Shown piece after piece: positions 4,875 to 45,265 of a DNA stretch of 64,000 nt (the first letter of the stretch is position 1; the number at the start of each line of letters is the position of its first letter). The stretch lies in NCBI GenBank assembly GCA_020630095.1, contig JAHDCD010000001.1, positions 5,698 through 69,697 of the forward strand. The letters run 5' to 3'. The stretch comes from Rickettsiales bacterium (GTDB lineage Bacteria > Pseudomonadota > Alphaproteobacteria > Rickettsiales > UBA8987). Under the pieces are notes generated by a model. That model saw only the letters and a list, made by a program, of their open reading frames with translations. It made no database searches and had not been told where the DNA came from. Position numbers and translations under genes: made by a program.

Positions 4875-4953
4875 ATAGTTATTATCTCATTAAAAGATTA
4901 ACTTTTTGTTAAAAATTAACTTTTAATTTAGTTTTGTGGTCTATTAATAGGCT

Positions 4954-6192: not shown

Positions 6193-6468
6193 ATCTATAG
6201 ATAGCTCAAACATTCTTATAATTCGTTTGTCGGATATTGAATAGGTAACGAATTGCTTTTCTTTTTTAATTTTTAAAAAACCATAAACTTGCATTTTTCT
6301 TAAGTGGAAAGAAGCTAGGCCATGGTCTGCCTTTAATTTTCCTGCGATCTCTTCTACTGTATGAGGTTTTTCAATTAGTAGTTTGATTATTATTAACCTA
6401 TTTGGATTTGAGAGTATTTTATGAAATTTTGAGATTTCTTCTATGTGTTTGAAATTGGTATTTTTCAT
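6181..6468 (-). CDS. ArsR/SmtB-family winged-helix transcriptional regulator (paralogue 1), no metal-sensing Cys motif
   Basis: LSNPNRLIIIKLLIEKPHTVEEIAGKLKADHGLASFHLRKMQVYGFL fits the ArsR HTH pattern (NRLxILxxL...sV.EL...l..sq..vS.HL..L...G). Confidence 0.75.
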   Translation of the reverse strand: MKNTNFKHIEEISKFHKILSNPNRLIIIKLLIEKPHTVEEIAGKLKADHGLASFHLRKMQVYGFLKIKKEKQFVTYSISDKRIIRMFELSIDLTN

Positions 6469-6498
6469 GTTTTTTGCCTAGGTGTAGGTTGTTATAAT

Positions 6499-6550
6499 AT
6501 ACGAGTATTCTTATTTATACTTATATAAGCATAAATAAGAATACTCGTAT
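6499..6550. promoter_or_regulatory. 52-bp palindrome (25 of 26 pairs) in the divergent arsR-like / fadL-like intergenic region; candidate operator
   Basis: ATACGAGTATTCTTATTTATACTTAT|ATAAGCATAAATAAGAATACTCGTAT. The only mismatch is the 6519/6530 pair. It lies 31 bp from the regulator start. Confidence 0.55.
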
Positions 6551-6689
6551 AGATGTGTAATGTTTAATTGTTAATATTTAAAGGTTTTATTTTGTTTTAG
6601 AGGCTGTCTTGTATAAAAATATCTTGCATTAGTAGTTAAGAGTATTAGCAATTAGTAATTACATTTTACTAATTCAACTTTACTCATTT

Positions 6690-7880
6690 ATGAAAAATTT
6701 CACTAAACTATCATATGTAATGGCCGGTGTAAGTGCTCTAGCTATAACATCTATTTCAAGTGACGCTAATGCTGCTGCATTCCAATTAAAGGAGCAATCG
6801 GCTGCGGGTCAAGGTAACTCATTTGCAGGTGCAACCGCTAGTCCAGAGGGGTTATCTGGTATATTTTTTAACCCTGCGGCAATTGCGGATATTGAAGGCA
6901 GAAAGGCTGAGATTGGCTTAAGCTTTATCGCTCCAGATTCTAAATGGACTGAGGCTGGTGGTACTTCAGGTAATGCGGGTGATGACGCCTTTGTACCATA
7001 TGGTTATGGTGTTATGGATTTATCGCCTAGCACTAAGCTTGGTATTGGTGTTAATGCGCCATTTGGTCTTAAAACAGAATATGGTGTTACAGAAACACCT
7101 GCGCCATTAGCTACAGTTTCTGAGCTTACTACTGTTGCTTTATCAATTGTTGCTTCAACTAGAGTTAATGAAAAGTTAGCTATTGGTGGTGGTATTATTT
7201 TACAACATGCGGAAGCTGAACTTTCTACCAACGCTTTAGTTAATGAAGGTGATGATGATCTAGGTTTAGGTTTTGTATTGGGTTTCCAGTATGAAGCTAC
7301 GGATGCTTTAACTTTAGGTTTTAACTATCGTTCACAAATTAATCATAACTTAGAAGGTGATGCAACATTGGCGGGAACATTTTTTTCTGATTTAGCGGTG
7401 GATGCATCTTTACCGGATATTGTTAGCTTTGGTGCGGCTTACCAAGTTTCAGATACTGTTGAATTAGTTGCGGATGCAACATGGACTAACTGGTCTGATT
7501 TTGAATCAATTGATTTAGAATTTGGTACTCCTGGCTTTCCATTAGGTACTGGTTTAAGTATTCCTCAGAACTATGAAAACTCATGGTTTGTAGGTCTGGG
7601 TGCTAATGTGGATGTATCTGATAACTTAACTGTTAGAACTGGTTTTGCTTATGACCAAACTCCAACTACAGATGCAGACAGAACTTTCCGTGTGCCAGAT
7701 GAGGACAGAACTTGGGCTTCTTTAGGTGCTACTTATGTTCTTGATAATGGTATCGAGATTTCTGGTGGTTATTCTCATATCTTCGTGCCAGATAATGCTG
7801 TTGTTAACGAAGGTGGTTTATCCGCTGAATTTGAAGCTGATGTTGATATTTTATCTTTATCAGTTGGCTTTAACTTCTAA
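6690..7880 (+). CDS. FadL/OmpP1/TodX-family outer-membrane transport protein
   Basis: Signal peptide ending ANA; N-terminal AAFQLKEQSAAGQGNSFAGATA...FFNPAAIA; C-terminal beta-strand ending in F (LSLSVGFNF). Confidence 0.8.
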   Translation: MKNFTKLSYVMAGVSALAITSISSDANAAAFQLKEQSAAGQGNSFAGATASPEGLSGIFFNPAAIADIEGRKAEIGLSFIAPDSKWTEAGGTSGNAGDDAFVPYGYGVMDLSPSTKLGIGVNAPFGLKTEYGVTETPAPLATVSELTTVALSIVASTRVNEKLAIGGGIILQHAEAELSTNALVNEGDDDLGLGFVLGFQYEATDALTLGFNYRSQINHNLEGDATLAGTFFSDLAVDASLPDIVSFGAAYQVSDTVELVADATWTNWSDFESIDLEFGTPGFPLGTGLSIPQNYENSWFVGLGANVDVSDNLTVRTGFAYDQTPTTDADRTFRVPDEDRTWASLGATYVLDNGIEISGGYSHIFVPDNAVVNEGGLSAEFEADVDILSLSVGFNF

Positions 7881-19800: not shown

Positions 19801-21920
19801 GAGTTCGAAGCAAAGCCTTCACCTGTGCCTCTGTTATTTGATGTATTAGGAGCATTACCTTGATGAGAAGGAGGTGTGTATTGTGGGTTATTTCTAGGGG
19901 CCGCACCTGATAAGTCTGGGTTGTTAACTTGAGCAATATTAGAGCTTGTATTTCCCAGGCTACCATTTTCTAGTGGTTCACCGATACCAAATCTGTTTAA
20001 GCTATCAGAAATGTTTTGAGAATTTGTGATGTCGCTTATAGAGGTGTTATTTGTAGGTAAGTTTGGAGTATTTGTCTCAAAGCTTCTTTGTAAGCCATCA
20101 CCAACGGTTTCGCCACCTGTATAAGGGTTATTATTAACAACTCTTAGAGGTTGTGGGGCCTCAGTTATTCTTTGGTACTCTTCCCAAGAAATTTCACGAG
20201 GTTCATTAGCTGCACTTAAGTTACCATCTAAAGGATCAAATGGCGTTGCAGATTCGCGGTCTAAGCTGATACCATTTCTAAGAGTATCATTTACTTGACC
20301 AACTCTATCGCTGATACCATTACCAATATCTTTTACTTTGTCAGTGATTGGGCTAACTATTTTATCTGTAATAAACTCATTAGCGGTATTTATACCTTCT
20401 TTAAAATTATTTACGCCTTCACCAATAGCTTCACGAGTATTTGTAACGGCATCGCTTAAGAAATCTCTTGTTGAATCAAGGAATGAGCCATTTGAACCAT
20501 TACCAACAGCTTCACCATTAAGTGATACTTCACCAACACCTTCAAAACCGCCTTGCTCTAAATATCTAGAAACATCAGCATTTGAGATATCACCATTTAA
20601 GCTTAACGACGATGTGCCATCACCACGAACAGATATTTCGTTTAATTGATTAATATCATTTAAGCCGTTAACTGAAATGTTAGAACCATTCTCAGCAAAT
20701 ATATCACCAACTGATGAATTTGATGCGTTTACAGATAAATCTGAATTATCTAAGTTAAACTGTCCTAAGTCTGAACCATTTACGCTAATTTCACTACCAG
20801 TTGCAAATGTAGGAGTTTCAAGAGTTCTTGCATTTACGCCATCATAGCCAATCTTTGCGTTTTCAAGGTTAAAGTTATTTACAGAGATAGGTGCGCCATC
20901 AGATGTAATTGATAATTCACTATCTGTGATATTGAATTCATCACCGCCACCGATTGTAAAGGCACCTTCATCGCCAAATATTTCGTCAGTAAGGGTAATA
21001 TCCTTACCTGTAATGTTTTCTAAATTAAATGTATCATTATCAGAGATAGAACCAATTCTACCGAATTCAGTACCATCTAATGTAGCATTGTTCTCCAAAG
21101 CACTTTCTAGTGAGCCATCTTCAATTGAACCACCTTCAAATTTGATATCAGTAATTTCACCTTCAGCGGTAAGTTCACCTACGTCAGTATCTTTGGCGTC
21201 AAAAAGTACATCAGTTTCACTTGTTAATTCAGCTTCACCAATTGTTGTTCCTTCAGCATTAAGATCAATTTCGCCACTTTCAGCAAATAATGAATCAAAA
21301 TCAGTACCAATTGCTTCAAGATCAAAATTATCAGCACCTTGCGCTCTGAAATCACCAATTTCAGATCCATCAAATGTTACGTCCTCTGTACCATCTGCAA
21401 ATATTGAATCACTTGTAAGGTTGTTACCATCTATTTTTAGACCTGTTGTTTCTAGGTCCTGAATTTTAGTGTCAGTTGCATTTACATCACCTGTAACTTC
21501 AGCGTTGATAGCTTCAGAACCTTCAAATGTACCTGCGCCGTCTATTTTTACTTCAGCAGCATTACTTTCAATTAATGTTGTATCGCTACCTGAATCTAAT
21601 TTATTTGTATCTGTACCAGATATTTCACCACCTTGTGCGGCTACTATTTCATTAGCTGTTGAATTTGTAACTGCTTCACCAGAGGTTGTTGTGATATTTT
21701 GTGCATCTACATTATTTGCAGCTTCCACTTCACCATCAACAACTGTTTGGAATTTAATTTTGCCAAAGCCATGGTTGGCGAATAGATTGTCGTATGCGCT
21801 ATATGAATTGTTGTAGAAGTAAGAATCTTGCGCTGATGCGTTGCTTTGAACAGCCGTAATTAATAATGCTGCTAGTGCGCCTATATAGAATTTGAATATT
21901 TTATTACCTAATTTTTGCAT
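13857..21920 (-). CDS. Giant type Va autotransporter (2,687 aa) with a multi-module passenger
   Basis: Sec signal peptide (...AVQSNASA). Acidic G/D/E/T/S/N repeat region. About 400 aa of P/S/T/N-rich low complexity. Internal enzyme-like modules. The C-terminal ~300 aa have alternating beta-strand character and end ...LKLGYKYNF (terminal aromatic, autotransporter-barrel style). Confidence 0.85.
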   Translation of the reverse strand: MQKLGNKIFKFYIGALAALLITAVQSNASAQDSYFYNNSYSAYDNLFANHGFGKIKFQTVVDGEVEAANNVDAQNITTTSGEAVTNSTANEIVAAQGGEISGTDTNKLDSGSDTTLIESNAAEVKIDGAGTFEGSEAINAEVTGDVNATDTKIQDLETTGLKIDGNNLTSDSIFADGTEDVTFDGSEIGDFRAQGADNFDLEAIGTDFDSLFAESGEIDLNAEGTTIGEAELTSETDVLFDAKDTDVGELTAEGEITDIKFEGGSIEDGSLESALENNATLDGTEFGRIGSISDNDTFNLENITGKDITLTDEIFGDEGAFTIGGGDEFNITDSELSITSDGAPISVNNFNLENAKIGYDGVNARTLETPTFATGSEISVNGSDLGQFNLDNSDLSVNASNSSVGDIFAENGSNISVNGLNDINQLNEISVRGDGTSSLSLNGDISNADVSRYLEQGGFEGVGEVSLNGEAVGNGSNGSFLDSTRDFLSDAVTNTREAIGEGVNNFKEGINTANEFITDKIVSPITDKVKDIGNGISDRVGQVNDTLRNGISLDRESATPFDPLDGNLSAANEPREISWEEYQRITEAPQPLRVVNNNPYTGGETVGDGLQRSFETNTPNLPTNNTSISDITNSQNISDSLNRFGIGEPLENGSLGNTSSNIAQVNNPDLSGAAPRNNPQYTPPSHQGNAPNTSNNRGTGEGFASNSPHAQPTYDNPERSELPITNNGEGLGGDTSPNSTIPGRGDSYSQPNTAYIPPVNGRPGVSQSEKNIGAPSTGTYVPPTTPVSNTPTGAVSNSTSNTSNPLANVRNIGGSPNSQNTSNNTNYTPPTLTQRNSPTTNTSNSGGINASVTPPRASSTPTSTPTAISSNTSRADTYRENYTPGSSPVQRNPNSNVDFNSDNNSSLSDILSGLSGLGSQISNNNRPTTSPSYPQPEQPKLEEVAQEQPSAPSQSTQSSGPPEITRDLRDERRVSGTQLQNNGHTDNLGNPARTSTLVLNGTAYTVVSGARGSGPAPEGEWDVTKIEGDSRSWSGGQVVRFEEMWDPKLNRLRTGIISHISRNGYPGTSGCIAPECINGNNSGLSRQQVYDQFIADMRAEVQKGNDTLVLKYDGTSYMTNGQTNRNVTSNNNQTAPQENVTSKPFTEEQSQAIANNAVFDPEFQPIEPATTPNSSPTETSGGISTSIPRTTTSSTTSSAPNPVRVLQDGALEIDESVPKEIRGRIAQEYNDLVINGADWDKIEGKLNETHNALTTQTPDEFRANERAKLEQERIEREKIEKAEKTKKLSDLNSQASKLRESGVIKKSTSNSIAGFDPSEFTFGREARLDKNGNVKVYYPPAGDGGGAYEVAGITARYQPNEAKHLRSLVQNGQHAAAKRYAKEYFRELSEPYTKHATNPGLQLQIADTVHHRGAGIPKGGHGYKQQYGGLLNVLQRATGDFSTNDRAALIRKLDAMPDALDRFNKARVAHEWEDVDRGRASRKKFRGMFTHRFPPANNAAKAAEAAWKANGGGNNVFSTSTSGDLVLADNAPKEVRDLVESYRDLGASDQKISSILSGTETFTDPDQLLSLGDTKGFGGGGINASAAKPRTITKTVKTAPKLSTTNANAEFEAFEGSVDGQTGTGKNFISRTKDGVFEASPVGDDGFATFADGTKISASDVEALGGVNNIGKKLGGEAAPKTRGTTTQPTTKEIITNNAGSNLPEHAIHHEGNNVLRVNEDGAAHMTNTGRLVGTENVNEAYRNARANGASVEDAVKSVNDEFRIRKETVETNQPSTIAQKDKIVDIGKNGDVEFVNGNFSNATREQITDLKGQGKTNQEVVDTINGTQPASVQTSEQDLSKLSPEFLKSGGNKAGGTETKTVTLNPDGSDPTYSGFKVTKEELPRYKTNADGSIVKDSKGNPVFNEDVTKVVEGTLNGKKITGIVDAQGNITYTTDDPFSLAEADVPNNISQIPGQETGVIVGTAPDGTPIYQGPQPTKVSDGAGSYNGGSYCADCNGGSSNYGGSGSNGPLGAASSLLGGSGAFNPLQAIMGLLGLAQNALGGGGDEDGNSGGNNSQIANIDDEKPLCDKENDEVAQRKNGKWECVVTALKDAEIAGNEEGGVNIDVSEGTEEDIEGTENSDLVVASEVIDTEVNLGAGNDAIDAKNSRIAQGGVVNLGGGKNVILSDRIVNEGEISGDNVMIVGDIVQTEDGKIIVTQTTEEEKLDDVDTVIEPLKVAGNAILDGVIEINVRNKEELLSLKPGDKVTVVRSNGAIIDNGVVIEAPVKDDLYAWTKEVDQETGELNAVLGYAKADCANVESLSDEAKSICNSISKAAQENDTFIIPDVQALLANINDSDLTKRTAALESMSAEGYISANNSISRAVSNFLNIAHDRIFASDKANRKSGDYNNVGEFGKDKKVKNYECSAYGGYINGNGSGGENAHKYTTSSDGVFVAGDCLQDNYKLGAMVSYVTKDIDEDSGFDSSSRIVSVGGYGSYALDNGIKLSGIASLNAAKTDVTRTTNAGSASSTSVSDFATYVLGFKGEAGYDLHAGSVLFRPYGGLEYQYIRSGEALETGDNISDLDVSHYSTSYASANLGARAIMDKRIGILNNMLVSPYIETEIVADIIKMEENIEAEILGTSFTSYKENETSSRLRLGVGVDGSMFNDNEINKHNLFGHFKYEQGLGGEESDSVLKLGYKYNF
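13860..14750 (-). other. Autotransporter beta-barrel translocator domain (aa ~2390-2687; approximate)
   Basis: Amphipathic beta-strand pattern, Gly/aromatic-rich, C-terminal YKYNF. Confidence 0.7.
17421..17993 (-). other. Possible GH108-lysozyme / PG_binding_3-like module inside the autotransporter passenger (aa ~1310-1500; approximate)
   Basis: GDGGGAYEVAGITARY and LQLQIADTVHHRGAG...LLNVLQRA loosely resemble GH108 (DpGGxTxxGIT) and its helical partner domain. The EGG catalytic motif was not found. Confidence 0.3.
18576..18938 (-). other. Tlde1/DUF2778-like (YkuD-type L,D-transpeptidase fold) module inside the autotransporter passenger (aa ~995-1115; coordinates approximate)
   Basis: VSGARGSGPAPEGEWDV ... 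RLRTGIISHISRNGYPGTSGCIAPE fits the pattern SG...GPiPxGxY ... R.gf.iH......SxGCI. Confidence 0.55.
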
Positions 21921-23670: not shown

Positions 23671-24498
23671 ATGAAAAATATATCTAACGCATTGAAAAAC
23701 CATATTTCACAAGAAGTTACTACGCTGGCTTCATGTATTTTATTAAAGTTGCGGGATGGAGCTTTAATTGGCTTCACTTCTTTAGATCAAGATATTGAAT
23801 TTGAAGGAGTTTTGTATGAATCTTGTATGGGGGTAGACATTTTAGGGGCGAATACTCAGAATGATTTAAGTAATGATGATTTAGATTTTACCAGCGTGAT
23901 AGATTCGCCGTTAATGGACGAGAAAGAGTTGCGCGCGGGAAGGTTTGACCATGCCGAAGTTAGTGCGTTTTTAGTTAATTATGAAGATTTAACGCAAGGT
24001 AGGTTAATGCTTCGTTTTGGTTATTTAGGTGAGATAAAACATTCTAATGGTCGCTTTGAGGGGAAAGTTCATGGTTTAGGTAAAAAGCTTGATAAAGTTC
24101 AGGGTGATTTATATTCTAAAATTTGTCGTGCGAAGTTTGGCGATAGTAAATGCGGTTTTGATACTTCTAGCGTTACATTTACTGGTGTAGTAAGCGCGGT
24201 GGAATCAAATAAAGAGTTTACCGATAGCACACGTGCGGAGGATTCAGGGCATTTTGATAATGGTGTGATTAAGTTTATATCCGGCGCTAATGCAGGGCAA
24301 AGTATTGAAATTAAAAAGAGTTTTGCTGAGCGTGTTACGTTAATGATGGCTTTGCCGTATGATATTGCGGTAGGAGATAGTTACGAGATTACGCAAGGTT
24401 GCGATAGAGTATTTAGTACTTGCGTTGAGCGTTATAATAATGCGATTAATTTTCGTGCGGAACCGCATATTCCTGGAACATCTGCTATTGTAGGCTAA
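23671..24498 (+). CDS. GTA/phage tail hub protein homologue (RcGTA g13-like; DUF2163 / TIGR02218 with BR0599 C-terminal domain)
   Basis: TTLASCILLKLRDGALIGFTSLDQDIEFEGVLYES at the N-terminus. The C-terminus GVIKFISGANAGQSIEIK...GDSYEITQGCDRVFSTCVERYNNAINFRAEPHIPG matches the BR0599 pattern. Confidence 0.75.
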   Translation: MKNISNALKNHISQEVTTLASCILLKLRDGALIGFTSLDQDIEFEGVLYESCMGVDILGANTQNDLSNDDLDFTSVIDSPLMDEKELRAGRFDHAEVSAFLVNYEDLTQGRLMLRFGYLGEIKHSNGRFEGKVHGLGKKLDKVQGDLYSKICRAKFGDSKCGFDTSSVTFTGVVSAVESNKEFTDSTRAEDSGHFDNGVIKFISGANAGQSIEIKKSFAERVTLMMALPYDIAVGDSYEITQGCDRVFSTCVERYNNAINFRAEPHIPGTSAIVG

Positions 24499-26359
24499 GT
24501 AGAGTTTCTGCGATTGAGTCTGCATCCAAACCGGCTTCTTGCAATTGTTCTGCTTGAGTTGCGTGGTCTTGGTATTTATCCGGTAATATTAAGCTTCTAA
24601 AGCGTTTATCAAGTAGTGCGTCAGAGTCTGTTAATAATTTCAGTACAGATGAGCCGAAGCCGCCAGATGAACCTTCTTCAATTGTTACTATATTCTTAGC
24701 TTTGCTAATGGATTCTAATATTAGCTCTTCATCGATTGGTTTAGCGAAGCGGGCATCTATAACTGTGCATCTAACACCTTTCCATTTTAAACGTTCAGCG
24801 GCTTCAAGTACTTCACTTAGCATTGTGCCTATAGATATTATAACATTTTCTTCACCCTCTTTGTGGGCAACATATCCTTTGCCAAGTTCAATATTAGGCA
24901 CTTCAGTATCGGTAATAATTGCATTACCACGTGGATAGCGAATGGCTATTGGGCTTTCGTTATATTCAGCTGAAAATTTAACGATTTCCTCTAATTCAAC
25001 CGCGTTGGACGGGCAAGCGATAACCATGTTAGGTAGGCACGAAAGGTACGCAATATCGAAGCTACCTGCATGGGTTGCGCCATCTGCGCCTACTAAGCCG
25101 GCTCTGTCCATTGCGAATCTAACGGGTAGATTTTGGATTGCGCAATCGTGGATTAATTGGTCGTATGCGCGCTGTAGGAATGTGGAATAAATTGTAACGA
25201 ATGGTTTGAGGCCTTCAGTTGCCAAACCTGCGGCGAAGGTTACAGCATGTTGTTCGGCAATTCCTACGTCAAAATATTTATCTGGATAAGATTCTTGGAA
25301 TTTATCTAGCCCTGTTCCGCTTGGCATTGCGGCGGTTATGGCGATAATTTTATCGTCCTTTTCTGCTAGTTCAGTTAATGTTTTGCTGAAAATGGCTGTG
25401 TTGGATGGTGTGCCGCCTTTTGATTTACGTTGTACTTTAGTTTCAACATCGAACCCGCTAGTTGCATGGTATTTTTCAGATGAGAAATCAGGTGAATTAA
25501 AGCCTCTACCTTTTTCAGTAACTATATGAATTAAAACAGGTTTATTATCTATATTATCGCGAACGTTAGAAAGTACTTTAACTAGATGGTCGGTATTATG
25601 ACCATCTAGCACGCCGATATAATGGAATCCCATTCCTTCGAAAAAGTTTGTACGATTGCGCGAAAAGGGCATTAATGATTTCCAAAAACTTTCGGTGCGT
25701 TTTGCGGCGCGGCTGAAATAATCAGGGAATTTATTAAGCACGCGTTTGGTAATATCGCGAAGGCTGTAATATGGTTTTGAGCTTACTAGGTTTGCTAAGT
25801 AACGGCTCATTGCGCCTACTGCGGGCGCGATTGACATATCGTTATCGTTCAGAATAACGATTAATTTTGAATCATATGCACCGGCATTATTAAGCGCCTC
25901 GTATGCCATGCCAGCGGACATTGCGCCATCGCCAATTACGGCGATAACTTCGTTTTTCTTATTTAGCTTATCGCGGGCAATAGCCATGCCGTGCCCTGCT
26001 GAAATAGATGTAGATGAATGACCTGCGCCGAACGGGTCATATTCAGATTCGGAGCGTTTAGTGAAGCCAGATAATCCGCCTTTTTTGCGGATGGTTTGCA
26101 TGTCATCCTTACGGCCAGTTAAAATTTTATGTGGGTATGCTTGGTGGCCAACATCCCAAATTAGTCTGTCTTCTGGAGTGTTGAAAACGTAATGAATAGC
26201 GACAGTAAGTTCAACTACGCCTAAGCCAGCGCCAAGGTGACCACCGGTTTGTGAAACGTTGTTTATCACCTCTTGGCGAAGTTCATCTGAAAATTGAGGT
26301 AGCTGATTAACATCAAGCTTCTTTAAATCAGAAGGGTATTTGATTTTATCTAATAACAC
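24485..26359 (-). CDS. dxs: 1-deoxy-D-xylulose-5-phosphate synthase
   Basis: GGHLGAGLGVVELTVAIHYVF, ThDP motif GDGAMSAGMAYEALNNAG, IAEQHAVTFAAGLA. GTG start. Confidence 0.95.
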   Translation of the reverse strand: MLLDKIKYPSDLKKLDVNQLPQFSDELRQEVINNVSQTGGHLGAGLGVVELTVAIHYVFNTPEDRLIWDVGHQAYPHKILTGRKDDMQTIRKKGGLSGFTKRSESEYDPFGAGHSSTSISAGHGMAIARDKLNKKNEVIAVIGDGAMSAGMAYEALNNAGAYDSKLIVILNDNDMSIAPAVGAMSRYLANLVSSKPYYSLRDITKRVLNKFPDYFSRAAKRTESFWKSLMPFSRNRTNFFEGMGFHYIGVLDGHNTDHLVKVLSNVRDNIDNKPVLIHIVTEKGRGFNSPDFSSEKYHATSGFDVETKVQRKSKGGTPSNTAIFSKTLTELAEKDDKIIAITAAMPSGTGLDKFQESYPDKYFDVGIAEQHAVTFAAGLATEGLKPFVTIYSTFLQRAYDQLIHDCAIQNLPVRFAMDRAGLVGADGATHAGSFDIAYLSCLPNMVIACPSNAVELEEIVKFSAEYNESPIAIRYPRGNAIITDTEVPNIELGKGYVAHKEGEENVIISIGTMLSEVLEAAERLKWKGVRCTVIDARFAKPIDEELILESISKAKNIVTIEEGSSGGFGSSVLKLLTDSDALLDKRFRSLILPDKYQDHATQAEQLQEAGLDADSIAETLLSLQ

Positions 26360-26432
26360 TTTGATAAGTTCTTATCGAATAAACTAATTAATTCAATTCT
26401 TTACAGATAAATTAATGTTGATTTCTGTTGTG

Positions 26433-26496
26433 GAGTTAATATATCTATATACCTATATACCAATATTGGTATATAGGTATATAGATATATTAACTC
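26433..26496. promoter_or_regulatory. Perfect 64-bp palindrome between dxs and the divergent arsR-like gene; candidate operator
   Basis: GAGTTAATATATCTATATACCTATATACCAAT|ATTGGTATATAGGTATATAGATATATTAACTC, with all 32 pairs complementary. Confidence 0.55.
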
Positions 26497-26537
26497 AGCT
26501 TTTGTTAGTTATAACAATCTGTTAGTGGGTAATTAAA

Positions 26538-26828
26538 ATGAAACCTATAAGTCATAAAGATGTTCTTTACGTAGAAAATAAGTATAAAGCTATTTCTAAT
26601 ATAAATAGGATTAGGATAATTAATTTCCTTCTTGAAGGGGAGAAATATGTTCGAGATATTGAGCGTTATTTAAATACTATAAGCCAACCTGTACTTACGG
26701 AGCATTTGCGTAAGTTAGTGAATTATGGAATTTTAGGTTTTACTAAAAAGAAGAACCATATCTATTATTATATTGAAGATACTGATATAGTAAAAGCTAT
26801 GTCTGTATATGGCGCGGATAAGATGTAA
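26538..26828 (+). CDS. ArsR/SmtB-family winged-helix regulator (paralogue 2)
   Basis: ISNINRIRIINFLLEGEKYVRDIERYLNTISQPVLTEHLRKLVNYGIL. Confidence 0.7.
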   Translation: MKPISHKDVLYVENKYKAISNINRIRIINFLLEGEKYVRDIERYLNTISQPVLTEHLRKLVNYGILGFTKKKNHIYYYIEDTDIVKAMSVYGADKM

Positions 26829-28362: not shown

Positions 28363-30801
28363 GTGACTAAAGACACTATAAAAATATTCTTCGTTGATGA
28401 TCAGCCTCGGGTTCAAAATAATTATATGGAAGAGGTTAAGGATGTATTATCAAGGGAAAATATTAATTTTGAGTATCAGATATTTTCTGGTGCCAGAGCT
28501 TTGTCTCAGGAATTAGAGAAAATTCACTCTGAGGGAGGGGGGTTACCGGATTCCGTTATGATTGATTATATTTTTGGAGGTAACGAAGTGGGTCTTAATG
28601 TTGCCCAAACGATGCTTGATCCAAAGTTTGAGGGAAGTCTGCATGAAGAGTTTTATCAAGATATTGAGTGGTTTATGTGTACCTCTTCGTCAAGGCGTGT
28701 AAATGAATCGCCATTGATACAGAGTTTAAATTGGGGAAGGTATGAAGGTGAAAGATGCATTAATAAGGAGGAGTTTGTAACACTTCTTCGATCTTTCAGT
28801 AAAAAGCCTAAAGAAATGTTTCCTTTGTTATCTTACTTTAACTATGCGCTTGATTTAGGTATTAAACCTAGAGATGCAGAAATTGAAGGGGCTGAAGGTG
28901 ATAAAAATGTTGAAGCTTTAAATAACTTTAAGGTTGGACCTAACATGGGGGATACAGCTATGCAGCTTGATCCTGATAGTCTTAGAGAGAGTTTAACCCC
29001 GAGTTATAAAAATTTAGATAATGATCCTAAATTTTTTAGATTTAGAAAATTTTCAACTGATCCAATAAGGGGTAAGCTTTGTTTTAACTCTGAAGATATA
29101 GAATCAGCTCTTAATTCAGAGGATAAGGCTATTATAGTTCTACAAAGCTTTAATGAATCGGAATTGGATTTAATTAATAATGCGGATGGTGTTGTGGTTA
29201 TTGGCTCAGGTAGTTCTCATGCGCTAGAGATATTAAGGGCATTGAATAAGCCATATGTTACTGATTTACAAGATTATGATTATAAAAAGAAGGATGGCGG
29301 TTTAGGTTTTTACCCATGTGCTAGGGTTGATACTATTGATGGAGAATTGGCCTTAATAAGTATGGATCATAGAGTTAGTAGGGCAATTGGAAATTATATT
29401 TCTGGGAAAGCTGAAGCTATTGATATTGATTATGAGGGAGCTTCGGATGATTATTATTTAACAGCTGGAAATGCAGTTACCTTAGTTAGTGGAGATTTAG
29501 TTTCTACGGAAGTTGAGATAGATAATTCTTATGCAAATGATGAGTTTGTAGAGAGGCTATTAGATTTTACTATTTATACTAAATATTTATGTAAGGGGGT
29601 AAGGGTTTCGGCAGCAGTTGATAGTGCTGATGTATTGCCTGAAGTTTTTGAAAGTACTTTGGATATAGGATTAATAAGATCTGAGCATTTAATTTTGGGA
29701 GATGATACCGTTGGAGTAAAGCAGCTACTTAAAGAAATAATTTTAAGTGAAGAGGGGGTATCTGAGGATCAAGGAAATAGATTAAAAGAAGAGTTATCTA
29801 CCTCTGTGGAAGGTCTGTTTGAGGCTGTTAAGATGGAGTATAATGGAAAATTTAATATAAGGCTTTTTGATTTAACTTTAGATGATTTTTTTACACAGCA
29901 AGAAATTGAGGAGATTCATGCTCGTTATGGTGAGCAAGGAGTTAATGGAACTCAACTAGCTAATCAGATTGAGGGGCTTTATGAGGCACAAATAGATGTG
30001 TTGATGTTAAATTTTATTAAAGCTCATGGACAAAATCTTAGTAGTAATGCCTATGAATCTGAGAATAAGGATTATAATAGGGATGCATTTGATGACTTGC
30101 AGAGGTCTGAAATGAGCGTAATGTTGCCGCATGTTAAAACAGCTGAAGACGTTGTTAGATATAAAGAATATGCTAAGAACTCAATGGAAAAGGCTATGAA
30201 GCAGGAAGAGAATAGCTATGAAGTGAGTTTTATTAAACGTGAAAAGTGTCTTGATAGTATTGAAGGGTATGAGCCTCCGTATAAGTTTGGGGCGATGGTA
30301 GAAACATTGGAGGCTTGTGAAAATATTGAAGATATAGCAAGAGAATGTGATTTTATTAGTATTGGAGCTAATGATTTAACTTCGGCGGTTCTTGGTATTG
30401 CCAGAAACGATATTGAGGCAATTAGAGATTATCAATATGAAAATGATGGCCTTAATCCATTTGAAACTCTTTGTCCTGAGGTGAAGGAGAGAATTAAAGA
30501 TATTTATACTAGAGCTAAAGCGGCTAATCCTGATCTTGAGATTAACTTATGTGGTCGTCAAGGGGCGGATATTGAGGCCATAAAAGTCTTGGATGAAATT
30601 GGTTTTGACTCTGTTTCTGTTGATGCTGAAAAGAGTGTATTTATTCCAGCATGTGTTGAAGCATTGCAGTATCATATTCAAAAAAAGAAGTTGCAAGAAG
30701 AGGGGAAGGGAGGGGGCTTGTCTGAGCAGTCTTCAGCTCCTAATCCTCAGCAATGCTATAAAGGTAATTCTTTTCCTAAAGGGGTGAATCAGAGGCAATA
30801 A
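28363..30801 (+). CDS. Receiver (REC)-like domain fused to a PPDK-like phosphohistidine swivel domain and PEP/pyruvate-binding TIM barrel; no ATP-grasp domain
   Basis: REC pattern: FVDDQ (D12/D13), VMIDYIFGGNEVGL (D68), FMCTSSS, CINKEEF (K135). Swivel: VVVIGSGSSHALEILRALNKPYV (H286). Barrel: IGLIRSEH, NIRLFDLTLDDFF, MLPHVKTAEDV, GAMVETLEA...DFISIGANDLTS...RND, LCGRQGADIEAIKVLDEIGFDSVSV. GTG start. Confidence 0.65.
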   Translation: MTKDTIKIFFVDDQPRVQNNYMEEVKDVLSRENINFEYQIFSGARALSQELEKIHSEGGGLPDSVMIDYIFGGNEVGLNVAQTMLDPKFEGSLHEEFYQDIEWFMCTSSSRRVNESPLIQSLNWGRYEGERCINKEEFVTLLRSFSKKPKEMFPLLSYFNYALDLGIKPRDAEIEGAEGDKNVEALNNFKVGPNMGDTAMQLDPDSLRESLTPSYKNLDNDPKFFRFRKFSTDPIRGKLCFNSEDIESALNSEDKAIIVLQSFNESELDLINNADGVVVIGSGSSHALEILRALNKPYVTDLQDYDYKKKDGGLGFYPCARVDTIDGELALISMDHRVSRAIGNYISGKAEAIDIDYEGASDDYYLTAGNAVTLVSGDLVSTEVEIDNSYANDEFVERLLDFTIYTKYLCKGVRVSAAVDSADVLPEVFESTLDIGLIRSEHLILGDDTVGVKQLLKEIILSEEGVSEDQGNRLKEELSTSVEGLFEAVKMEYNGKFNIRLFDLTLDDFFTQQEIEEIHARYGEQGVNGTQLANQIEGLYEAQIDVLMLNFIKAHGQNLSSNAYESENKDYNRDAFDDLQRSEMSVMLPHVKTAEDVVRYKEYAKNSMEKAMKQEENSYEVSFIKREKCLDSIEGYEPPYKFGAMVETLEACENIEDIARECDFISIGANDLTSAVLGIARNDIEAIRDYQYENDGLNPFETLCPEVKERIKDIYTRAKAANPDLEINLCGRQGADIEAIKVLDEIGFDSVSVDAEKSVFIPACVEALQYHIQKKKLQEEGKGGGLSEQSSAPNPQQCYKGNSFPKGVNQRQ

Positions 30802-42037: not shown

Positions 42038-43138
42038 ATGTCTTTTAAGTGTGGAATAGTTGGATTGCCAAATGTTGGTAAATCTACTTTGTTTAATGCG
42101 TTAACTGCGACTTCAAATGCGGATGCGGGTAATTTTCCGTTTTGCACTATTGAGCCTAATACCGGTAAAGTTGCGGTACCAGATGAGCGCTTATATAAAT
42201 TGGCGGATATTGCTACTTCAAAAGAAATCATTCCTAATCAATTAGAGTTTGTTGATATTGCGGGTTTAGTTGCAGGTGCATCTAAAGGTGAAGGTTTAGG
42301 TAATAAATTCTTAAGTCATATTCGGGAAGTGGATATTATTGCCCATGTATTACGTTGTTTTGAGAATGATGATATTACTCATGTTGAAGGACGAGTTAAT
42401 CCGTTAGACGATTTTGAGATTATTCAAACCGAACTTATATTATCTGATTTAGAATCGCTTGAGCGTAGATTGCCAGCATTACAAAAGCGTGCGGTGCAAG
42501 ATAAAGAACTTAAAGCGCAAGCGGAAGTTATGGAAAAGGCGTTGGCTGTTTTACAAGAAGGCAAGCCGTTAACAACATTAGAATTAGATTCAGATGATGA
42601 GCGTAAACTACTGAAGCAGATGCATACTTTAACATCTAAGCCGTTCATGTTTATATGTAATGTTGGCGAAGATGAGGTAGTTGATGGTAATGAGCATGTT
42701 GAGGCTGTTAAGAAATATGCGACTTCAGTTGGTGCGGCGGTATCGTTAATATCTGCACAGATAGAAGAAGAGATAGCTAACTTAGGCGATGAAGGGGAGA
42801 AGGCTGAATTTCTAGAGTCATTAGGCTTGGAAGAAACTGGTTTAGCTAAGATTATTAAGGCAGGTTATGAGCTACTTGGTTTAACTACATTCTATACCGT
42901 TGGCCCTAAGGAGGCGAGAGCATGGATTGTTAGAACGGGTGGTACTGCGCCAAATGCGGCTGGTGCTATTCATACAGATTTTGAGCGTGGCTTTATTAAG
43001 GCAGAAACTATTGCGTTTGCAGATTACGTTGAATTTAAAGGTGAGCAGGGTGCTAAAGAAAATGGTAAGTTTCGTATGGAAGGTAAGGATTATACTGTAC
43101 AAGATGGTGACGTTTTCCACTTTAAATTTAATGTCTAA
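42038..43138 (+). CDS. ychF: Ribosome-binding ATPase YchF
   Basis: GIVGLPNVGKSTLFNALT; DIAGLVAGASKGEGLGN; C-terminal TGS-like ...GKDYTVQDGDVFHFKFNV. Confidence 0.95.
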   Translation: MSFKCGIVGLPNVGKSTLFNALTATSNADAGNFPFCTIEPNTGKVAVPDERLYKLADIATSKEIIPNQLEFVDIAGLVAGASKGEGLGNKFLSHIREVDIIAHVLRCFENDDITHVEGRVNPLDDFEIIQTELILSDLESLERRLPALQKRAVQDKELKAQAEVMEKALAVLQEGKPLTTLELDSDDERKLLKQMHTLTSKPFMFICNVGEDEVVDGNEHVEAVKKYATSVGAAVSLISAQIEEEIANLGDEGEKAEFLESLGLEETGLAKIIKAGYELLGLTTFYTVGPKEARAWIVRTGGTAPNAAGAIHTDFERGFIKAETIAFADYVEFKGEQGAKENGKFRMEGKDYTVQDGDVFHFKFNV

Positions 43139-44184
43139 GCACTTTTTCTAATAATATTATCTAACTCTATTAAGTCTTCTATTGAGTTGGCCTTGTGGTT
43201 TAGGTGCTTTTCTAGGGATTTTTCAACGAAAGTAAAAATTTGGGTGAAGGTTAGTTCATCGTTTAAGTATTTTTCAACGGCGATTTCATTTGCAGCATTC
43301 AAAACGGCGCAAGCGGAACTTCCTGCTTCTATAGCATCGTAAGCCATTTGAATTGATGGGAATTTGTTTAAATCTGGCTCGTAGAAGTTTAGTGATTTTT
43401 GAAAGGCAAGGTCAAGGCTTGGCATAGGATAATTATTAACGCCTAGAACGTTGGCAATCGGAATGCGCATATCTGGTGCGTATAAGCCACTTATGGACAT
43501 GCCGTCAGCATATTCAACAATGGAATGGATAACAGATTCAGGGTGAATAAGAACTTTAGGTGTAATGCCAAATAGATAATGCGTTTCGATTATCTCTAGC
43601 GCCTTATTAAAGCAAGTTGCGCTATCTACAGAGATTTTAGCGCCCATGTGCCAGTTAGGGTGTTTTATGGCGCGCTCTTTAGGGAAGTCTATTAATTTAG
43701 GTTCATTAAAGAATGGGCCGCCGGAAGCGGTGATAGTTAAGTTTTTTACTTCGCGGGTAGTATCTAGTGTTTGATAGATTGAGTTATGTTCGGAATCTAT
43801 TGGTAGGATTTCGCAATTATGTTTTTTAGCTTCATTTAAGAAATAATTACCTGCAACTACTATACTTTCCTTGTTGGCTAGGCCTAATTGTTTTGATGTT
43901 TTTAGTGCTTGTAAAGCTGGCTTTAAACCTGCAATTCCTGTTATGGCGCAGATGGTTATATCTATTTCTTGATTAAGAAGTTCGGTTAAGGCTTGCTCGC
44001 CATCTTCAGAAATTAGAACAGTATTTTTACAATTAAGTTCTTCTGCTTGGCTTTGTAACTTGGTTTTATTTTTATTGGCAACTAAGCCAATAACTTCGAA
44101 AGCTTTGGACTGAGATTTAATTACTTTTATTGTATTCTCTCCAATTGTGCCCGTAGAGCCTAATATTACAACTTTCTTTACCAC
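43135..44184 (-). CDS. dxr: 1-deoxy-D-xylulose-5-phosphate reductoisomerase (shorter than typical, 349 aa)
   Basis: ILGSTGTIGENTIKVI; LANKESIVVAG; PIDSEHNSIYQ; HPNWHMGAKISVDSAT. Confidence 0.88.
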   Translation of the reverse strand: MVKKVVILGSTGTIGENTIKVIKSQSKAFEVIGLVANKNKTKLQSQAEELNCKNTVLISEDGEQALTELLNQEIDITICAITGIAGLKPALQALKTSKQLGLANKESIVVAGNYFLNEAKKHNCEILPIDSEHNSIYQTLDTTREVKNLTITASGGPFFNEPKLIDFPKERAIKHPNWHMGAKISVDSATCFNKALEIIETHYLFGITPKVLIHPESVIHSIVEYADGMSISGLYAPDMRIPIANVLGVNNYPMPSLDLAFQKSLNFYEPDLNKFPSIQMAYDAIEAGSSACAVLNAANEIAVEKYLNDELTFTQIFTFVEKSLEKHLNHKANSIEDLIELDNIIRKSA

Positions 44185-44253
44185 GAGTGTATTACTAACA
44201 ATTAGTGAATCTAAAGCAAGATTTATAGGTTATAAAGAGAGGTGTTTATATTG

Positions 44254-44301
44254 GTAGTAAATCTGGATATCTGGAAATTTCCAGATATCCAGATTTACTA
44301 C
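44254..44301. promoter_or_regulatory. Perfect 48-bp palindrome between dxr and the divergent arsR-like gene; it abuts a TTGACA box; candidate operator
   Basis: GTAGTAAATCTGGATATCTGGAAA|TTTCCAGATATCCAGATTTACTAC, followed immediately by TTGACA (44302-44307). Confidence 0.55.
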
Positions 44302-44332
44302 TTGACATGGTATGCTTTTGGAAGGTATCTGA

Positions 44333-44623
44333 ATGAATATGAATAAGATAGTTAGCAATGTTGATGAGCTGGACTTTTTGGAACAGAAATTTAAAGGGCT
44401 TGCTTCTAGGCATAGAGTTAAAATATTGATATATCTTAGTTCTGGTGAAAAATCATTGCCAGAAATTATTGAGCATCTAAAGCCTTTGAATTCAAAAACA
44501 ATATTTGAGCATGTTTCTAAGTTAAAGAAATATGGCATTATTAAAAATAGGCGAACTTCTATAAATACAATATATAAGATAAGTGATGATACCGCCTTAT
44601 CTTTCTTGGAAGGGTATAAATAG
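44333..44623 (+). CDS. ArsR/SmtB-family winged-helix regulator (paralogue 3)
   Basis: LASRHRVKILIYLSSGEKSLPEIIEHLKPLNSKTIFEHVSKLKKYGII; its stop directly abuts the bioD start. Confidence 0.65.
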   Translation: MNMNKIVSNVDELDFLEQKFKGLASRHRVKILIYLSSGEKSLPEIIEHLKPLNSKTIFEHVSKLKKYGIIKNRRTSINTIYKISDDTALSFLEGYK

Positions 44624-45265
44624 ATGCAAAAGAGAATTTTTATAACTTCAGTGGGTACAGAGATTGGTAAAACGTATGTTACCTGCTTAGAGGTTGCGCA
44701 TTTGTTGGAGCAAGGAATTGATGCTATTGCGGTTAAGCCGGTTATATCTGGATATGAAGAATATGAACACACTGATTTAACTGAACTTTTAAAATCCCAA
44801 AATCCCAAAATCCCAAAATCTCAAGGTTTGAAGTATGTTGATGATATAAGTTTATTCAAATTTAAAGAGCCTGTTTCGCCAGATATTGCTGCAAAAATGG
44901 AAAATGCGGAAGCTGCGAATGTAAAAGATATTAAGCGATATATTGATGATTTGGATAATGATGTAGTTTTAATTGAAGGTGTTGGTGGTTTATGTGTACC
45001 TTTGAATGATGATGAAACTACTCTTGATTTGATTAAGGCGTTAAATTGTGATGAAATTTGGCTAGTTAGTTCAAATTATTTGGGTGCGCTAAGTCATACT
45101 ATTTCTGCGGTTAAGAATCTGCCTGAAATTAGTAAAATTATAATTTCACAGAATGTGAGTGATATATCTGTAGATTTAGGAAGCTTCGTAGATTCGCTTA
45201 AAAATCATATAAATAAGCCTGTTTTTACCGTTAAAAGAGGCGGTTATTCTATTGACAAAGCATAA
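44624..45265 (+). CDS. bioD: Dethiobiotin synthetase
   Basis: P-loop ITSVGTEIGKTYVT; VKPVISG; IEGVGGLCVPL. Confidence 0.8.
   Translation: MQKRIFITSVGTEIGKTYVTCLEVAHLLEQGIDAIAVKPVISGYEEYEHTDLTELLKSQNPKIPKSQGLKYVDDISLFKFKEPVSPDIAAKMENAEAANVKDIKRYIDDLDNDVVLIEGVGGLCVPLNDDETTLDLIKALNCDEIWLVSSNYLGALSHTISAVKNLPEISKIIISQNVSDISVDLGSFVDSLKNHINKPVFTVKRGGYSIDKA

What the first reader, a model, noticed from the sequence alone, without database searches (positions are those of the whole stretch)
26360..26537. Perfect 64-bp palindrome between dxs and a divergent ArsR-like regulator
Positions 26433-26496 form a perfect 64-bp palindrome (32 of 32 pairs), built from TATA(G/C)-rich submotifs. It lies 74 bp from the dxs start and 42 bp from the regulator ATG. 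dxs encodes the first, flux-controlling enzyme of the MEP isoprenoid pathway. The second pathway enzyme, dxr, has the same arrangement at 44185-44332, with a different palindrome and a paralogous regulator. Dedicated transcription factors for the MEP entry steps are not part of the textbook picture. This could be a previously undescribed paired control module for isoprenoid precursor synthesis. A palindrome this long could also extrude as a cruciform.
Basis: partly seen in the sequence, partly recalled or inferred. Interest (0 to 1): 0.65.

Follow-up and report, generated by a model that had tools for sequence, protein, structure and literature searches.

The report
Giant palindromic operators of mini-ArsR repressors
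The perfect 64-bp palindrome next to dxs is real and is most likely the oversized DNA-binding site of the small ArsR-type repressor encoded beside it. It is one of at least three such repressor-plus-palindrome units in this stretch of genome, so it is probably a general local-repressor design, not a dedicated isoprenoid-pathway switch.

Summary
Positions 26433-26496 form a perfect, spacer-less 64-bp palindrome between dxs and a divergent 96-aa ArsR/SmtB-fold gene. A perfect 48-bp palindrome sits in the same way between dxr and a paralog.

- A fourth member, from the same sequencing run, sits beside bolA and tyrS.
- The three longest palindromes in the 64 kb map one-to-one to the three paralogs. 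Each lies 29-41 bp from the regulator ATG, beside a candidate -10 box found in equivalent position in all four modules.
- Two ArsR proteins from another metagenome, next to murD or carA-like genes, also carry perfect 38-44-bp palindromes. One shares a 14-mer with the dxs palindrome.

So the palindrome follows the regulator, not the MEP genes. The two MEP-linked regulators are not sister paralogs and their operators are unrelated, which argues against a paired module. The proteins have no Cys and no alpha-5 His sensor site.

The best reading is autorepressor operators, expanded by 8-bp arm repeats, that may also gate the divergent neighbour. Control of dxs and dxr stays plausible but untested. 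This is a new variant of a known kind, of moderate interest.

The parts
26433..26496 (.). Perfect spacer-less 64-bp palindrome, the putative operator of the adjacent mini-ArsR (P0001). It contains four overlapping ATTGGTATATAG-type half-sites at 8-bp offsets.
   Evidence: 32/32 pairs. Expected about 1.8e-14 by chance. Half-sites at 26445-56(-), 26453-64(-), 26465-76(+) and 26473-84(+). Shares a 14-mer with the operator of an unrelated organism's ArsR.
26538..26828 (+). 96-aa Cys-free ArsR/SmtB-fold protein (P0001). It is monocistronic and convergent with fumC.
   Evidence: HTH_5 at 37 bits. AF2 pLDDT 93.9 with a1-a2-a3-aR-b1-b2-a5 topology. Foldseek TM 0.75-0.83 to SmtB, CzrA, NolR and HlyU. 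No close homologue among 15 billion proteins.
26510..26515 (+). Candidate -10 box (TATAAC) of the regulator promoter. It lies 13 nt after the palindrome and ends 22 nt before the ATG.
   Evidence: The 11-mer TTATAACAAYC occurs only twice in the window (0.16 expected), both times at the same distance from a paralog ATG. This is an inference; no TSS data exist.
24485..26359 (-). [quoted passage not shown] It is monocistronic.
   Evidence: TIGR00204, 799.6 bits. Convergent with the phage/GTA-type baseplate-hub-like gene at 23671-24498 (PF09931, PF09356).
44254..44301 (.). Perfect spacer-less 48-bp palindrome, the putative operator of P0003. Each arm holds two 8-bp units, ATCTGGAT and ATCTGGAA.
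   Evidence: 24/24 pairs. The motif occurs nowhere else in the window beyond chance.
44333..44623 (+). 96-aa Cys-free ArsR-fold paralog (P0003). The likely true start is the second ATG at 44339. Its stop codon abuts the start of a bioD-like gene.
   Evidence: HTH_5 at 25.1 bits. The alignment favours the second ATG. TAGATG junction at 44621-44626.
44311..44316 (+). Candidate extended -10 box (TGgTATGCT), ending 22 nt before ATG 44339.
   Evidence: Sequence reading. Inference.
43135..44184 (-). dxr (DXP reductoisomerase), the divergent neighbour. It is monocistronic and convergent with ychF.
   Evidence: TIGR00243, 342.6 bits..
44624..45265 (+). bioD-like (dethiobiotin synthetase fold) gene, probably co-transcribed with P0003.
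   Evidence: PF13500 at 77.5 bits. Its start codon directly follows the regulator stop.
6498..6551 (.). Third palindrome, 54 bp and 26/27 pairs, the putative operator of P0002.
   Evidence: Reproduced exactly in independent Logan contig L084.
6181..6468 (-). 95-aa Cys-free ArsR-fold paralog (P0002). It is monocistronic.
   Evidence: HTH_5 at 32.4 bits. 29% identical to P0001.
6491..6496 (-). Candidate -10 box (TATAAC). It lies 1 nt after the palindrome and ends 22 nt before the ATG.
   Evidence: Inference.
6690..7880 (+). FadL/TodX-type outer-membrane transporter gene, the divergent neighbour of the third module. It is not an isoprenoid gene.
   Evidence: PF03349 at 248 bits.

Best explanation
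Each long palindrome is the operator of the small ArsR/SmtB-fold repressor encoded next to it. The protein, presumably a homodimer, binds repeated half-sites in the palindrome. The palindrome abuts or overlaps the core promoter of the regulator gene, so the regulator represses its own transcription.

The operator fills most of a short divergent intergenic region of 148-221 bp. The bound complex therefore probably also influences the promoter of the divergent neighbour: dxs, dxr or fadL in the window, and bolA on L082.

The unusual length comes from tandem 8-bp (in one case about 10-bp) duplications inside each arm, which multiply the half-sites. That would allow two or three dimers to bind cooperatively.

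The perfect symmetry is most simply a mutational by-product. Template switching at quasi-palindromes drives inverted repeats towards perfection.

The proteins lack every known ArsR sensor site. They may be ligand-independent homeostatic autorepressors, or they may sense something unknown.

What is shown: the fold and family of the protein, the palindromes, the 1:1 pairing with the paralogs, the positions, and recurrence of the design in other organisms. What is inferred: DNA binding, autorepression, stoichiometry, and any effect on dxs or dxr.
For: 1. There are exactly three ArsR-like paralogs and exactly three long palindromes in 64 kb, and each palindrome is immediately 5' of one paralog. 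No other perfect palindrome has arms of 11 nt or more.
2. The palindrome-to-regulator-ATG gaps are 41, 31 and 29 nt. The gaps to the neighbour are 73, 69 and 138 nt.
3. A -10-like hexamer ends 22-23 nt before the ATG in all four modules: TATAAC, TATAAC, TGgTATGCT and AATAAC. Only 1 of 40 other ORFs has one there. The 11-mer TTATAACAAYC is unique to two modules.
4. The proteins belong to ArsR/SmtB by sequence (Pfam; PDB profile E about 5e-13 to CzrA) and by fold.
5. The family's known behaviour is autorepression through inverted repeats at or near the promoter, including divergently transcribed cases (PMC8790569; Rv2034 in PMC3338718).
6. A fourth module (L082) has a 52-bp near-palindrome 35 nt before P0007, next to bolA and tyrS.
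7. P0028 and P0055, ArsR proteins from another metagenome with different neighbours, have perfect 44- and 38-bp palindromes 21 and 20 nt before their ATGs. P0055 has a second, imperfect copy downstream of its gene.
8. The L093 operator shares a 14-nt substring (ATATTGGTATATAG) with the core of the dxs palindrome. Only 0.16-1.4% of composition-matched shuffled palindrome pairs share 12 nt or more. P0001, P0028 and P0055 also share a similar recognition-helix start that the other paralogs lack.
9. Four generic ArsR relatives sampled as a baseline have either no notable palindrome or the classical 30-bp 12-2-12-like repeat.
10. Template switching is documented to make quasi-palindromes perfect (PMC7202029).
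Against: - There is no experimental or transcript evidence. The sigma-70 consensus scans found nothing above chance in any of the three intergenic regions, so the promoter positions are inferred.
- In L085 and L093 the best promoter reading puts the -35 upstream of the palindrome and the -10 inside its left arm. That differs from the arrangement I infer in the window, so the exact promoter-operator geometry is uncertain.
- Half-sites at 8-bp offsets overlap and are out of helical phase. That fits awkwardly with simple side-by-side dimer binding.
- Perfect symmetry through the very centre is not needed for protein binding and could instead reflect selection for hairpin or cruciform formation.
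- The shared 14-mer was found post hoc among about six pairwise comparisons.
- Two of the four known neighbours being the first two MEP enzymes is unlikely if placement were random. I estimate roughly 0.003 for the window alone before correcting for post-hoc choice. A functional link to the MEP pathway is therefore not dismissed.
Confidence: 0.65

Rival explanations
1. The dxs- and dxr-linked regulators are dedicated transcription factors for the MEP entry steps and form a paired control module for isoprenoid precursor supply, perhaps responding to MEP intermediates or oxidative stress.
For: - Two of the three modules in the window are divergent from dxs and dxr, which are consecutive pathway steps and both monocistronic here.
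- The palindromes lie 69-73 nt from the dxs and dxr starts, close enough to touch their -35 regions.
- Divergent local regulators commonly control their neighbour (family knowledge; the ziaR/ziaA example in PMC8790569).
- No published dedicated bacterial dxs/dxr regulator was found.
Against: - The same design occurs at fadL, bolA, murD and carA-like neighbours.
- The two regulators are not sister paralogs and their operators are unrelated, so nothing couples them.
- They have no Cys, no His cluster and no other recognisable sensor site.
- No other isoprenoid gene was found among the window ORFs scanned with Pfam, and no extra operator copy was found anywhere in the window.
- None of 80 alphaproteobacterial dxs loci has this arrangement.
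- The operator motif recurs with a related regulator in an organism where the neighbour is not dxs.
Confidence: 0.2
2. The palindromes act mainly as DNA structures. Cruciforms extruded under negative supercoiling, which divergent transcription generates, switch the two promoters. The ArsR-like protein is secondary, or recognises the extruded form.
For: - Symmetry is perfect through the centre, there is no spacer, and the centres are AT-rich.
- Predicted hairpins are very stable: -27, -22.5 and -18.9 kcal/mol, with z of -10 to -12.
- All lie between divergent genes.
Against: - The L082 palindrome has two mismatches and a 6-nt asymmetric centre, and the fadL one has a mismatch, so perfection is not required.
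- Perfection has a neutral explanation in template switching (PMC7202029).
- The strict 1:1 association with a DNA-binding paralog, and the sequence-specific divergence of each palindrome, point to protein recognition.
Confidence: 0.08
3. The palindrome is transcribed and works as an RNA hairpin in a 5' UTR of the regulator or the neighbour, for example as an RNase III site or attenuator.
For: - A terminator-like call on the minus strand at 6547-6502, upstream of P0002.
- In L085 and L093 a good -35 lies upstream of the palindrome, so part of it would be transcribed.
Against: - No Rfam family matches.
- There is no T-tract after the dxs or dxr palindromes.
- If the -10 lies inside the left arm, only a truncated hairpin would be transcribed.
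- The sequences are unrelated between modules.
Confidence: 0.04
4. The modules are selfish or mobile cassettes (repeat elements, toxin-antitoxin, phage or defence regulators), or they are assembly artefacts.
For: - Long palindromes are typical of some mobile repeats.
- The window comes from a Rickettsiales-like genome, a group known for palindromic elements (own knowledge).
- PADLOC gives weak Csa3/CasR hits.
Against: - Each palindrome sequence is unique in the window.
- The genes are tightly packed, with a 1-nt gap to fumC, a 12-nt overlap with the mscS-like gene and a stop abutting bioD. Base composition is uniform.
- No toxin partner is present.
- The PADLOC hits cover only the wHTH part. 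PHROGs and the viral contigs are essentially empty.
- Independent assemblies reproduce the sequence.
Confidence: 0.03

Closest known systems
ArsR/SmtB-family autorepressors with 12-2-12 operators (SmtB, CzrA, ZiaR, AzuR)
   Same: - Same fold and family, with a PDB profile E of about 5e-13 and TM of about 0.8.
- Small proteins of about 100 aa.
- An inverted-repeat operator at or near the promoter, often with a divergent target gene (PMC8790569).
   Different: - The operators here are 48-64 bp, perfect and spacer-less, against about 26 bp and imperfect.
- There is no alpha-3N Cys and no alpha-5 His/Asp/Glu metal site.
- They score below the NCBIfam metalloregulator cut-off.
- The neighbours are housekeeping biosynthetic genes, not metal-efflux or sequestration genes.
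Sensor-less or non-metal ArsR members (NolR, PagR, Rv2034, Rv0081, SdpR)
   Same: - ArsR fold without canonical metal sites.
- Autorepression through a palindrome overlapping the promoter. Rv2034 has an 8-4-8 repeat and a footprint from -30 to +3 (PMC3338718).
- Weak NCBIfam similarity to SdpR and PagR models.
   Different: - All NCBIfam scores are far below the equivalog cut-offs.
- Known operators are about 20-26 bp.
- No lineage-specific multi-paralog expansion with private giant operators has been described in what I could search.
Uncharacterised metagenomic ArsR proteins P0028 and P0055 (L085, L093)
   Same: - Small ArsR proteins with perfect spacer-less 44- and 38-bp palindromes 20-21 nt before the ATG.
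- GGTATAT/ATATACC cores. L093 shares a 14-mer with the dxs palindrome.
   Different: - Only 27-28% identical to P0001.
- P0028 passes the NCBIfam ArsR cut-off.
- The neighbours are mraY/murD-ftsW-murG and a carA-like gene.
- The -35 lies upstream of the palindrome.
Quasi-palindrome template-switch hotspots
   Same: This mutational process explains how inverted repeats become perfect, centre included (PMC7202029).
   Different: It is a mutational mechanism, not a functional class. It does not explain the association with the regulators.

Membership tests
ArsR/SmtB family transcription factors | Winged-helix HTH_5 domain above the Pfam gathering score | tested here: met
   37.0, 25.1 and 32.4 bits against a cut-off of 22 for the three window paralogs. 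P0007 scores 23.0.
ArsR/SmtB family transcription factors | a1-a2-a3-aR-b1-b2-a5 fold | tested here: met
   AF2 model of P0001 with pLDDT 93.9: helices 6-19, 22-31, 38-45, 50-62, strands 66-71 and 74-79, helix 82-90. Top Foldseek PDB hits are SmtB, CzrA, NolR, HlyU, SqrR, BigR and CadC, TM 0.75-0.83.
ArsR/SmtB family transcription factors | Inverted-repeat operator at or near its own promoter | tested here: met
   Palindromes lie 29-41 nt before each regulator ATG. Their length of 48-64 bp is about twice the canonical 26 bp (PMC8790569).
ArsR/SmtB family transcription factors | Homodimer that binds the operator and represses transcription | not testable with these tools
   Needs EMSA or footprinting, SEC-MALS and reporter assays.
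ArsR/SmtB metalloregulator subfamily (NCBIfam NF033788) | Score at or above the curated cut-off of 55 bits | tested here: not met
   44.9, 38.8 and 50.5 bits for P0001, P0003 and P0002. P0007 scores 40.2 and P0053 scores 33.1.
ArsR/SmtB metal or persulfide sensors | Sensor residues: alpha-3N Cys, alpha-5 Asp/His/Glu cluster, or a Cys pair | tested here: not met
   There is no Cys in P0001, P0002, P0003, P0007 or P0053. No His follows the conserved Asp in alpha-5, and the helix ends 10-15 residues later.
   No close relative of the organism was retrievable. The best dxs matches are 55-60% identical, and none of those 80 loci has the arrangement. P0007, 51% identical to the dxr-linked protein, is next to bolA and tyrS. 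The context of P0006, 61% identical, could not be fetched.
   The proteins are 25-28% identical and not each other's nearest paralogs. The palindromes share at most 6 nt.
Dispersed palindromic repeat elements (RPE/REP-like) | Multi-copy family with a conserved sequence | tested here: not met
   Each palindrome motif is confined to its own locus in 64 kb. The three sequences are unrelated.
CRISPR-associated Csa3/CasR regulators | CARF sensor domain plus wHTH | tested here: not met
   PADLOC matches cover only the wHTH portion of the models, and the proteins are 93-96 aa.

The most novel reading that the evidence does not exclude
A lineage-specific clade of sensor-less mini-ArsR repressors, each with a private, exceptionally long and perfectly symmetric operator, has been recruited in a Rickettsiales-like bacterium as local governors of essential single-gene units. 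These include dxs, dxr, a bioD-led operon, bolA and fadL, and elsewhere the murD-ftsW-murG cluster.

Under this reading the palindromes act as bidirectional switches, possibly coupled to supercoiling or cruciform formation. That would give the first known transcription-factor layer on the bacterial MEP entry steps.
Probability: 0.15. Interest if true: 0.7.

Novelty: new variant of a known kind. Interest (0 to 1): 0.4.

Why it matters
If the model holds, these modules are an unusually clean natural set of orthogonal repressor-operator pairs. They are tiny proteins of about 95 aa with no known ligand site, and each is matched to a private 48-64-bp perfect palindrome. That makes them useful for studying how operator specificity and operator length co-evolve after duplication, and possibly as insulated parts for synthetic circuits.

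It would also show local transcriptional control of dxs and dxr in a bacterium whose ancestral operons appear to have been broken up. That would interest people working on isoprenoid flux and on gene regulation in reduced, host-associated genomes. Without binding or expression data it remains a well-defined hypothesis, not a discovery.

Tried and rejected
- **Word-index homologue searches.** Searches with P0001, the three-paralog profile and the P0003/P0006/P0007 profile found only the family itself and two distant ArsR proteins.
- **Genome-contig scan with dxs.** The source genome and the 118,628- and 192,021-bp contigs could not be fetched.
- **Metagenome scans.** One found nothing and the other found one unrelated high-GC ArsR protein.
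- **Viral scan.** Nothing found.
- **Sigma-70 and terminator scans.** Nothing above chance, apart from a terminator-like call that is simply the third palindrome.
- **Extra operator copies or a regulon in the window.** None found.
- **Alignment of P0003 and P0007 upstream regions.** No similarity.
- **Rfam.** Only two tRNAs.
- **Paper search for the sample accession.** Nothing.
- **Literature searches.** No precedent for an ArsR regulator of dxs, for ArsR in Rickettsiales, or for giant perfect ArsR operators.
- **Rejected explanations.** Dispersed palindromic repeat element, toxin-antitoxin system, CRISPR-associated regulator, phage repressor and assembly artefact. Reasons are given under the rival explanations.

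Full report
**Observation**

Positions 26433-26464 and 26465-26496 are 32/32 complementary with no spacer. At the window's composition about 1.8e-14 such palindromes are expected in 64 kb, and the longest perfect arm in 20 shuffles was 12 nt.

Each arm is built from three 8-bp units (ATATATCT, ATATACCT, ATATACCA). The flanking genes are:
- dxs at 24485-26359 on the minus strand (TIGR00204, 799.6 bits);
- a 96-aa ORF at 26538-26828 on the plus strand that passes Pfam HTH_5, the arsR family.

The dxr locus repeats the design. It has dxr at 43135-44184 (minus), a perfect 48-bp palindrome at 44254-44301, and a 96-aa paralog at 44333-44623.

Independent Logan assemblies of run SRR14415275 agree with the window. 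One contig starts two bases past the centre of the 64-bp palindrome, which is where an assembler would be expected to break.

A window-wide scan finds exactly three very long palindromes. A profile of the paralogs finds exactly three such genes.

The third pair is a 54-bp palindrome at 6498-6551 (26/27 pairs), 29 nt upstream of a 95-aa paralog at 6181-6468 (minus). It is divergent from a FadL/TodX-type outer-membrane transporter gene.

In all three modules the palindrome is closer to the regulator ATG (41, 31 and 29 nt) than to the neighbour (73, 69 and 138 nt). No sub-motif of any palindrome recurs elsewhere in the window beyond chance.

**The proteins**

The three paralogs are 23-32% identical to one another and contain no cysteine.

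A profile search of the PDB gives CzrA, SqrR, HlyU, SmtB, NolR and CadC at E of 5e-13 to 2e-8 over nearly the full length. An AlphaFold2 model of the dxs-linked protein is confident (pLDDT 93.9) and has the canonical a1-a2-a3-aR-b1-b2-a5 topology. Its best structural matches are the same ArsR/SmtB proteins, with TM 0.75-0.83.

They score below NCBIfam's metalloregulator cut-off. They also lack both the alpha-3N cysteines and the alpha-5 His/Asp/Glu cluster. By fold they are therefore ArsR-family members, but not recognisable metal or persulfide sensors.

**Relatives**

The family is nearly orphan. An exhaustive HMM search of 1.84 billion cluster representatives merges into the generic ArsR superfamily, with 12,634 hits. 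Only P0006 and P0007 stand above it, at 61% and 51% identity to the dxr-linked paralog.

P0007 could be retrieved on a Logan contig from the same run. It has a 52-bp near-palindrome (21/23 pairs, 6-nt centre) 35 nt before its ATG, and its neighbours are bolA and tyrS, not dxr.

P0053, a further Cys-free member, lies on a contig of the same length as P0006, so another contig holds at least two members. Their contexts could not be fetched.

The nearest dxs sequences among GTDB species genomes are only 55-60% identical. None of those 80 loci has an ArsR-like gene or long palindrome directly upstream of dxs.

**A shared promoter layout**

The 11-mer TTATAACAAYC occurs twice in the window (0.16 expected). 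In both cases its TATAAC ends exactly 22 nt before the ATG of a paralog, the dxs-linked and the fadL-linked ones.

The dxr-linked gene has TGgTATGCT ending 22 nt before its second ATG, which is the start the alignment favours. P0007 has AATAAC at 23 nt. Only 1 of 40 other ORFs has such a hexamer at that position.

I read this as a common -10 box just downstream of each palindrome, which would place the operator over the -35 and spacer of the regulator's own promoter. This is an inference. The consensus promoter scans were uninformative, and an alternative layout, with the -35 upstream and the -10 inside the left arm, fits the relatives described next.

**The same design in another metagenome**

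I sampled the contexts of the nearest generic ArsR hits as a baseline.
- Three have no notable upstream palindrome (5-7 pairs).
- One has the classical 30-bp, 12-2-12-like imperfect repeat.
- Two related proteins from another metagenome sample are different.

P0028 is wedged between mraY and murD-ftsW-murG and has a perfect 44-bp palindrome 21 nt before its ATG. P0055 follows a carA-like gene and has a perfect 38-bp palindrome 20 nt before its ATG, plus a second, imperfect copy just after its stop codon.

The P0055 operator shares a 14-nt substring (ATATTGGTATATAG) with the core of the dxs palindrome. The 12-mer within it occurs nowhere else in the window or in the other 94 loci. Only 0.16-1.4% of composition-matched shuffled palindrome pairs share 12 nt or more.

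P0001, P0028 and P0055 also share a recognition-helix start (I-S/N-Q-P/G-x-L-T/S-x-H-L) that the other paralogs lack. This comparison was made post hoc, so I treat it as suggestive. It does point to the motif following the regulator type, not dxs.

**Mechanism**

ArsR/SmtB proteins are known to bind inverted repeats at or near promoters, often repressing their own gene and a divergent neighbour. The usual operator is an imperfect 12-2-12 repeat of about 26 bp (PMC8790569). Rv2034, an ArsR-like autorepressor, uses an 8-4-8 repeat with a footprint from -30 to +3 (PMC3338718).

The palindromes here look like such operators enlarged by tandem duplication of an 8-bp unit within each arm. There are four overlapping ATTGGTATATAG-type half-sites in the dxs operator.

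Their perfection is most economically explained by template switching at quasi-palindromes, which drives inverted repeats to perfection (PMC7202029). Selection for cruciform or hairpin formation cannot be excluded, since the single-strand hairpins are very stable.

**The MEP question**

In favour of a link: two of the four known neighbours are the first two MEP enzymes. If three modules were placed at random among the roughly 45 genes of the window, the chance that both dxs and dxr are hit is about 0.003, before correcting for the post-hoc choice of a 'notable pair'. Both genes are monocistronic here, with the palindrome 69-73 nt from their starts.

Against a dedicated, paired module:
- the design is generic, with fadL, bolA, murD and carA-like neighbours;
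- the two regulators are not sister paralogs;
- their operators are unrelated, so nothing couples them;
- they have no sensor site;
- the dxr-linked regulator heads its own operon with a bioD-like gene.

The number of modules in the whole genome decides how surprising the adjacency is, and I could not obtain it.

**Setting**

The window encodes VirB4, a giant VirB6-like protein, VirD4 and a 2,687-aa autotransporter. It is 37% GC with uniform composition. This suggests a Rickettsiales-like intracellular alphaproteobacterium, which is my inference from the gene content.

**Verdict**

The best reading is a set of autorepressor operators of a small, sensor-less ArsR clade, unusually long and perfect, that may also gate the divergent neighbours (confidence about 0.65). 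This is a new variant of a known kind, of moderate interest.

Noticed in passing
window 1793-5926: A near-identical tandem duplication with a 2,061-bp period (8 mismatches over 2,073 compared positions). It yields two identical 237-aa PALP-fold ORFs (2100-2813 and 4161-4874) and two MscS-like ORFs, one truncated (2893-3879, 328 aa) and one full-length (4954-6192, 412 aa). It could be a recent duplication or an assembly collapse or expansion.
   Followed up: partly
window 26467 (start of Logan contig L001): An independent short-read assembly of run SRR14415275 breaks two bases past the centre of the 64-bp perfect palindrome. The imperfect 54-bp palindrome is instead spanned by a single contig (L084). 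Perfect palindromes longer than the k-mer fragment de Bruijn assemblies, so such operators may be systematically under-represented in metagenome contigs.
   Followed up: partly
window 7938-9929, 53532-55727, 55775-61306, 13857-21920: Scattered type IV secretion genes: VirD4/TraG, VirB4, and a 1,843-aa VirB6/TrbL-like protein with a weak, sub-threshold CHAP-domain match (no passing stretch). There is also a 2,687-aa autotransporter. The pattern resembles the Rickettsiales vir homologue system with Sca-like surface proteins.
   Followed up: partly
window 11292-11903 and 23671-24498: Phage-tail-related genes stand alone among housekeeping genes: a DUF2460 gene at 11292-11903 and a gene with the baseplate-hub N-terminal domain and the BR0599 domain at 23671-24498. 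From my own knowledge these domains are typical of gene-transfer-agent clusters. No complete cluster is present in the window.
   Followed up: no
window 44333-44341: The dxr-linked regulator has two in-frame ATGs, at 44333 and 44339. Alignment with the paralogs and the 22-nt spacing from a TGgTATGCT box favour 44339. A perfect TTGACA also lies at 44302-44307, directly after the palindrome.
   Followed up: partly
window 28363-30801: An 812-aa ORF has a PEP-utilising-enzyme C-terminal domain (residues 413-757) and a roughly 400-aa N-terminal region with no Pfam match.
   Followed up: no
L085 2-1806: In an unrelated metagenomic organism, a 93-aa ArsR-like gene with a perfect 44-bp palindrome is inserted between mraY and murD in the otherwise highly conserved dcw cell-wall cluster. 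Its stop codon overlaps the murD start.
   Followed up: partly
L093 598-635 and about 955-990: The P0055 gene is flanked by two copies of the same operator: a perfect 38-bp palindrome upstream and an imperfect copy, with an indel in the left arm, just after its stop codon. The second copy is presumably in front of the next gene, but the contig ends there.
   Followed up: partly
L082 about 200-245: A GC-rich inverted repeat (AAGCGA...CACGAGGCTTGCCCCGTG...TCGCTT) lies between the P0007 palindrome and the bolA start, in an otherwise AT-rich spacer.
   Followed up: no
P0006 (not in window): The 114-aa call for P0006 has a 23-residue hydrophobic or odd N-terminal extension before an internal Met that aligns with the starts of its relatives. 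This is probably a miscalled start that reads through the upstream operator region.
   Followed up: no
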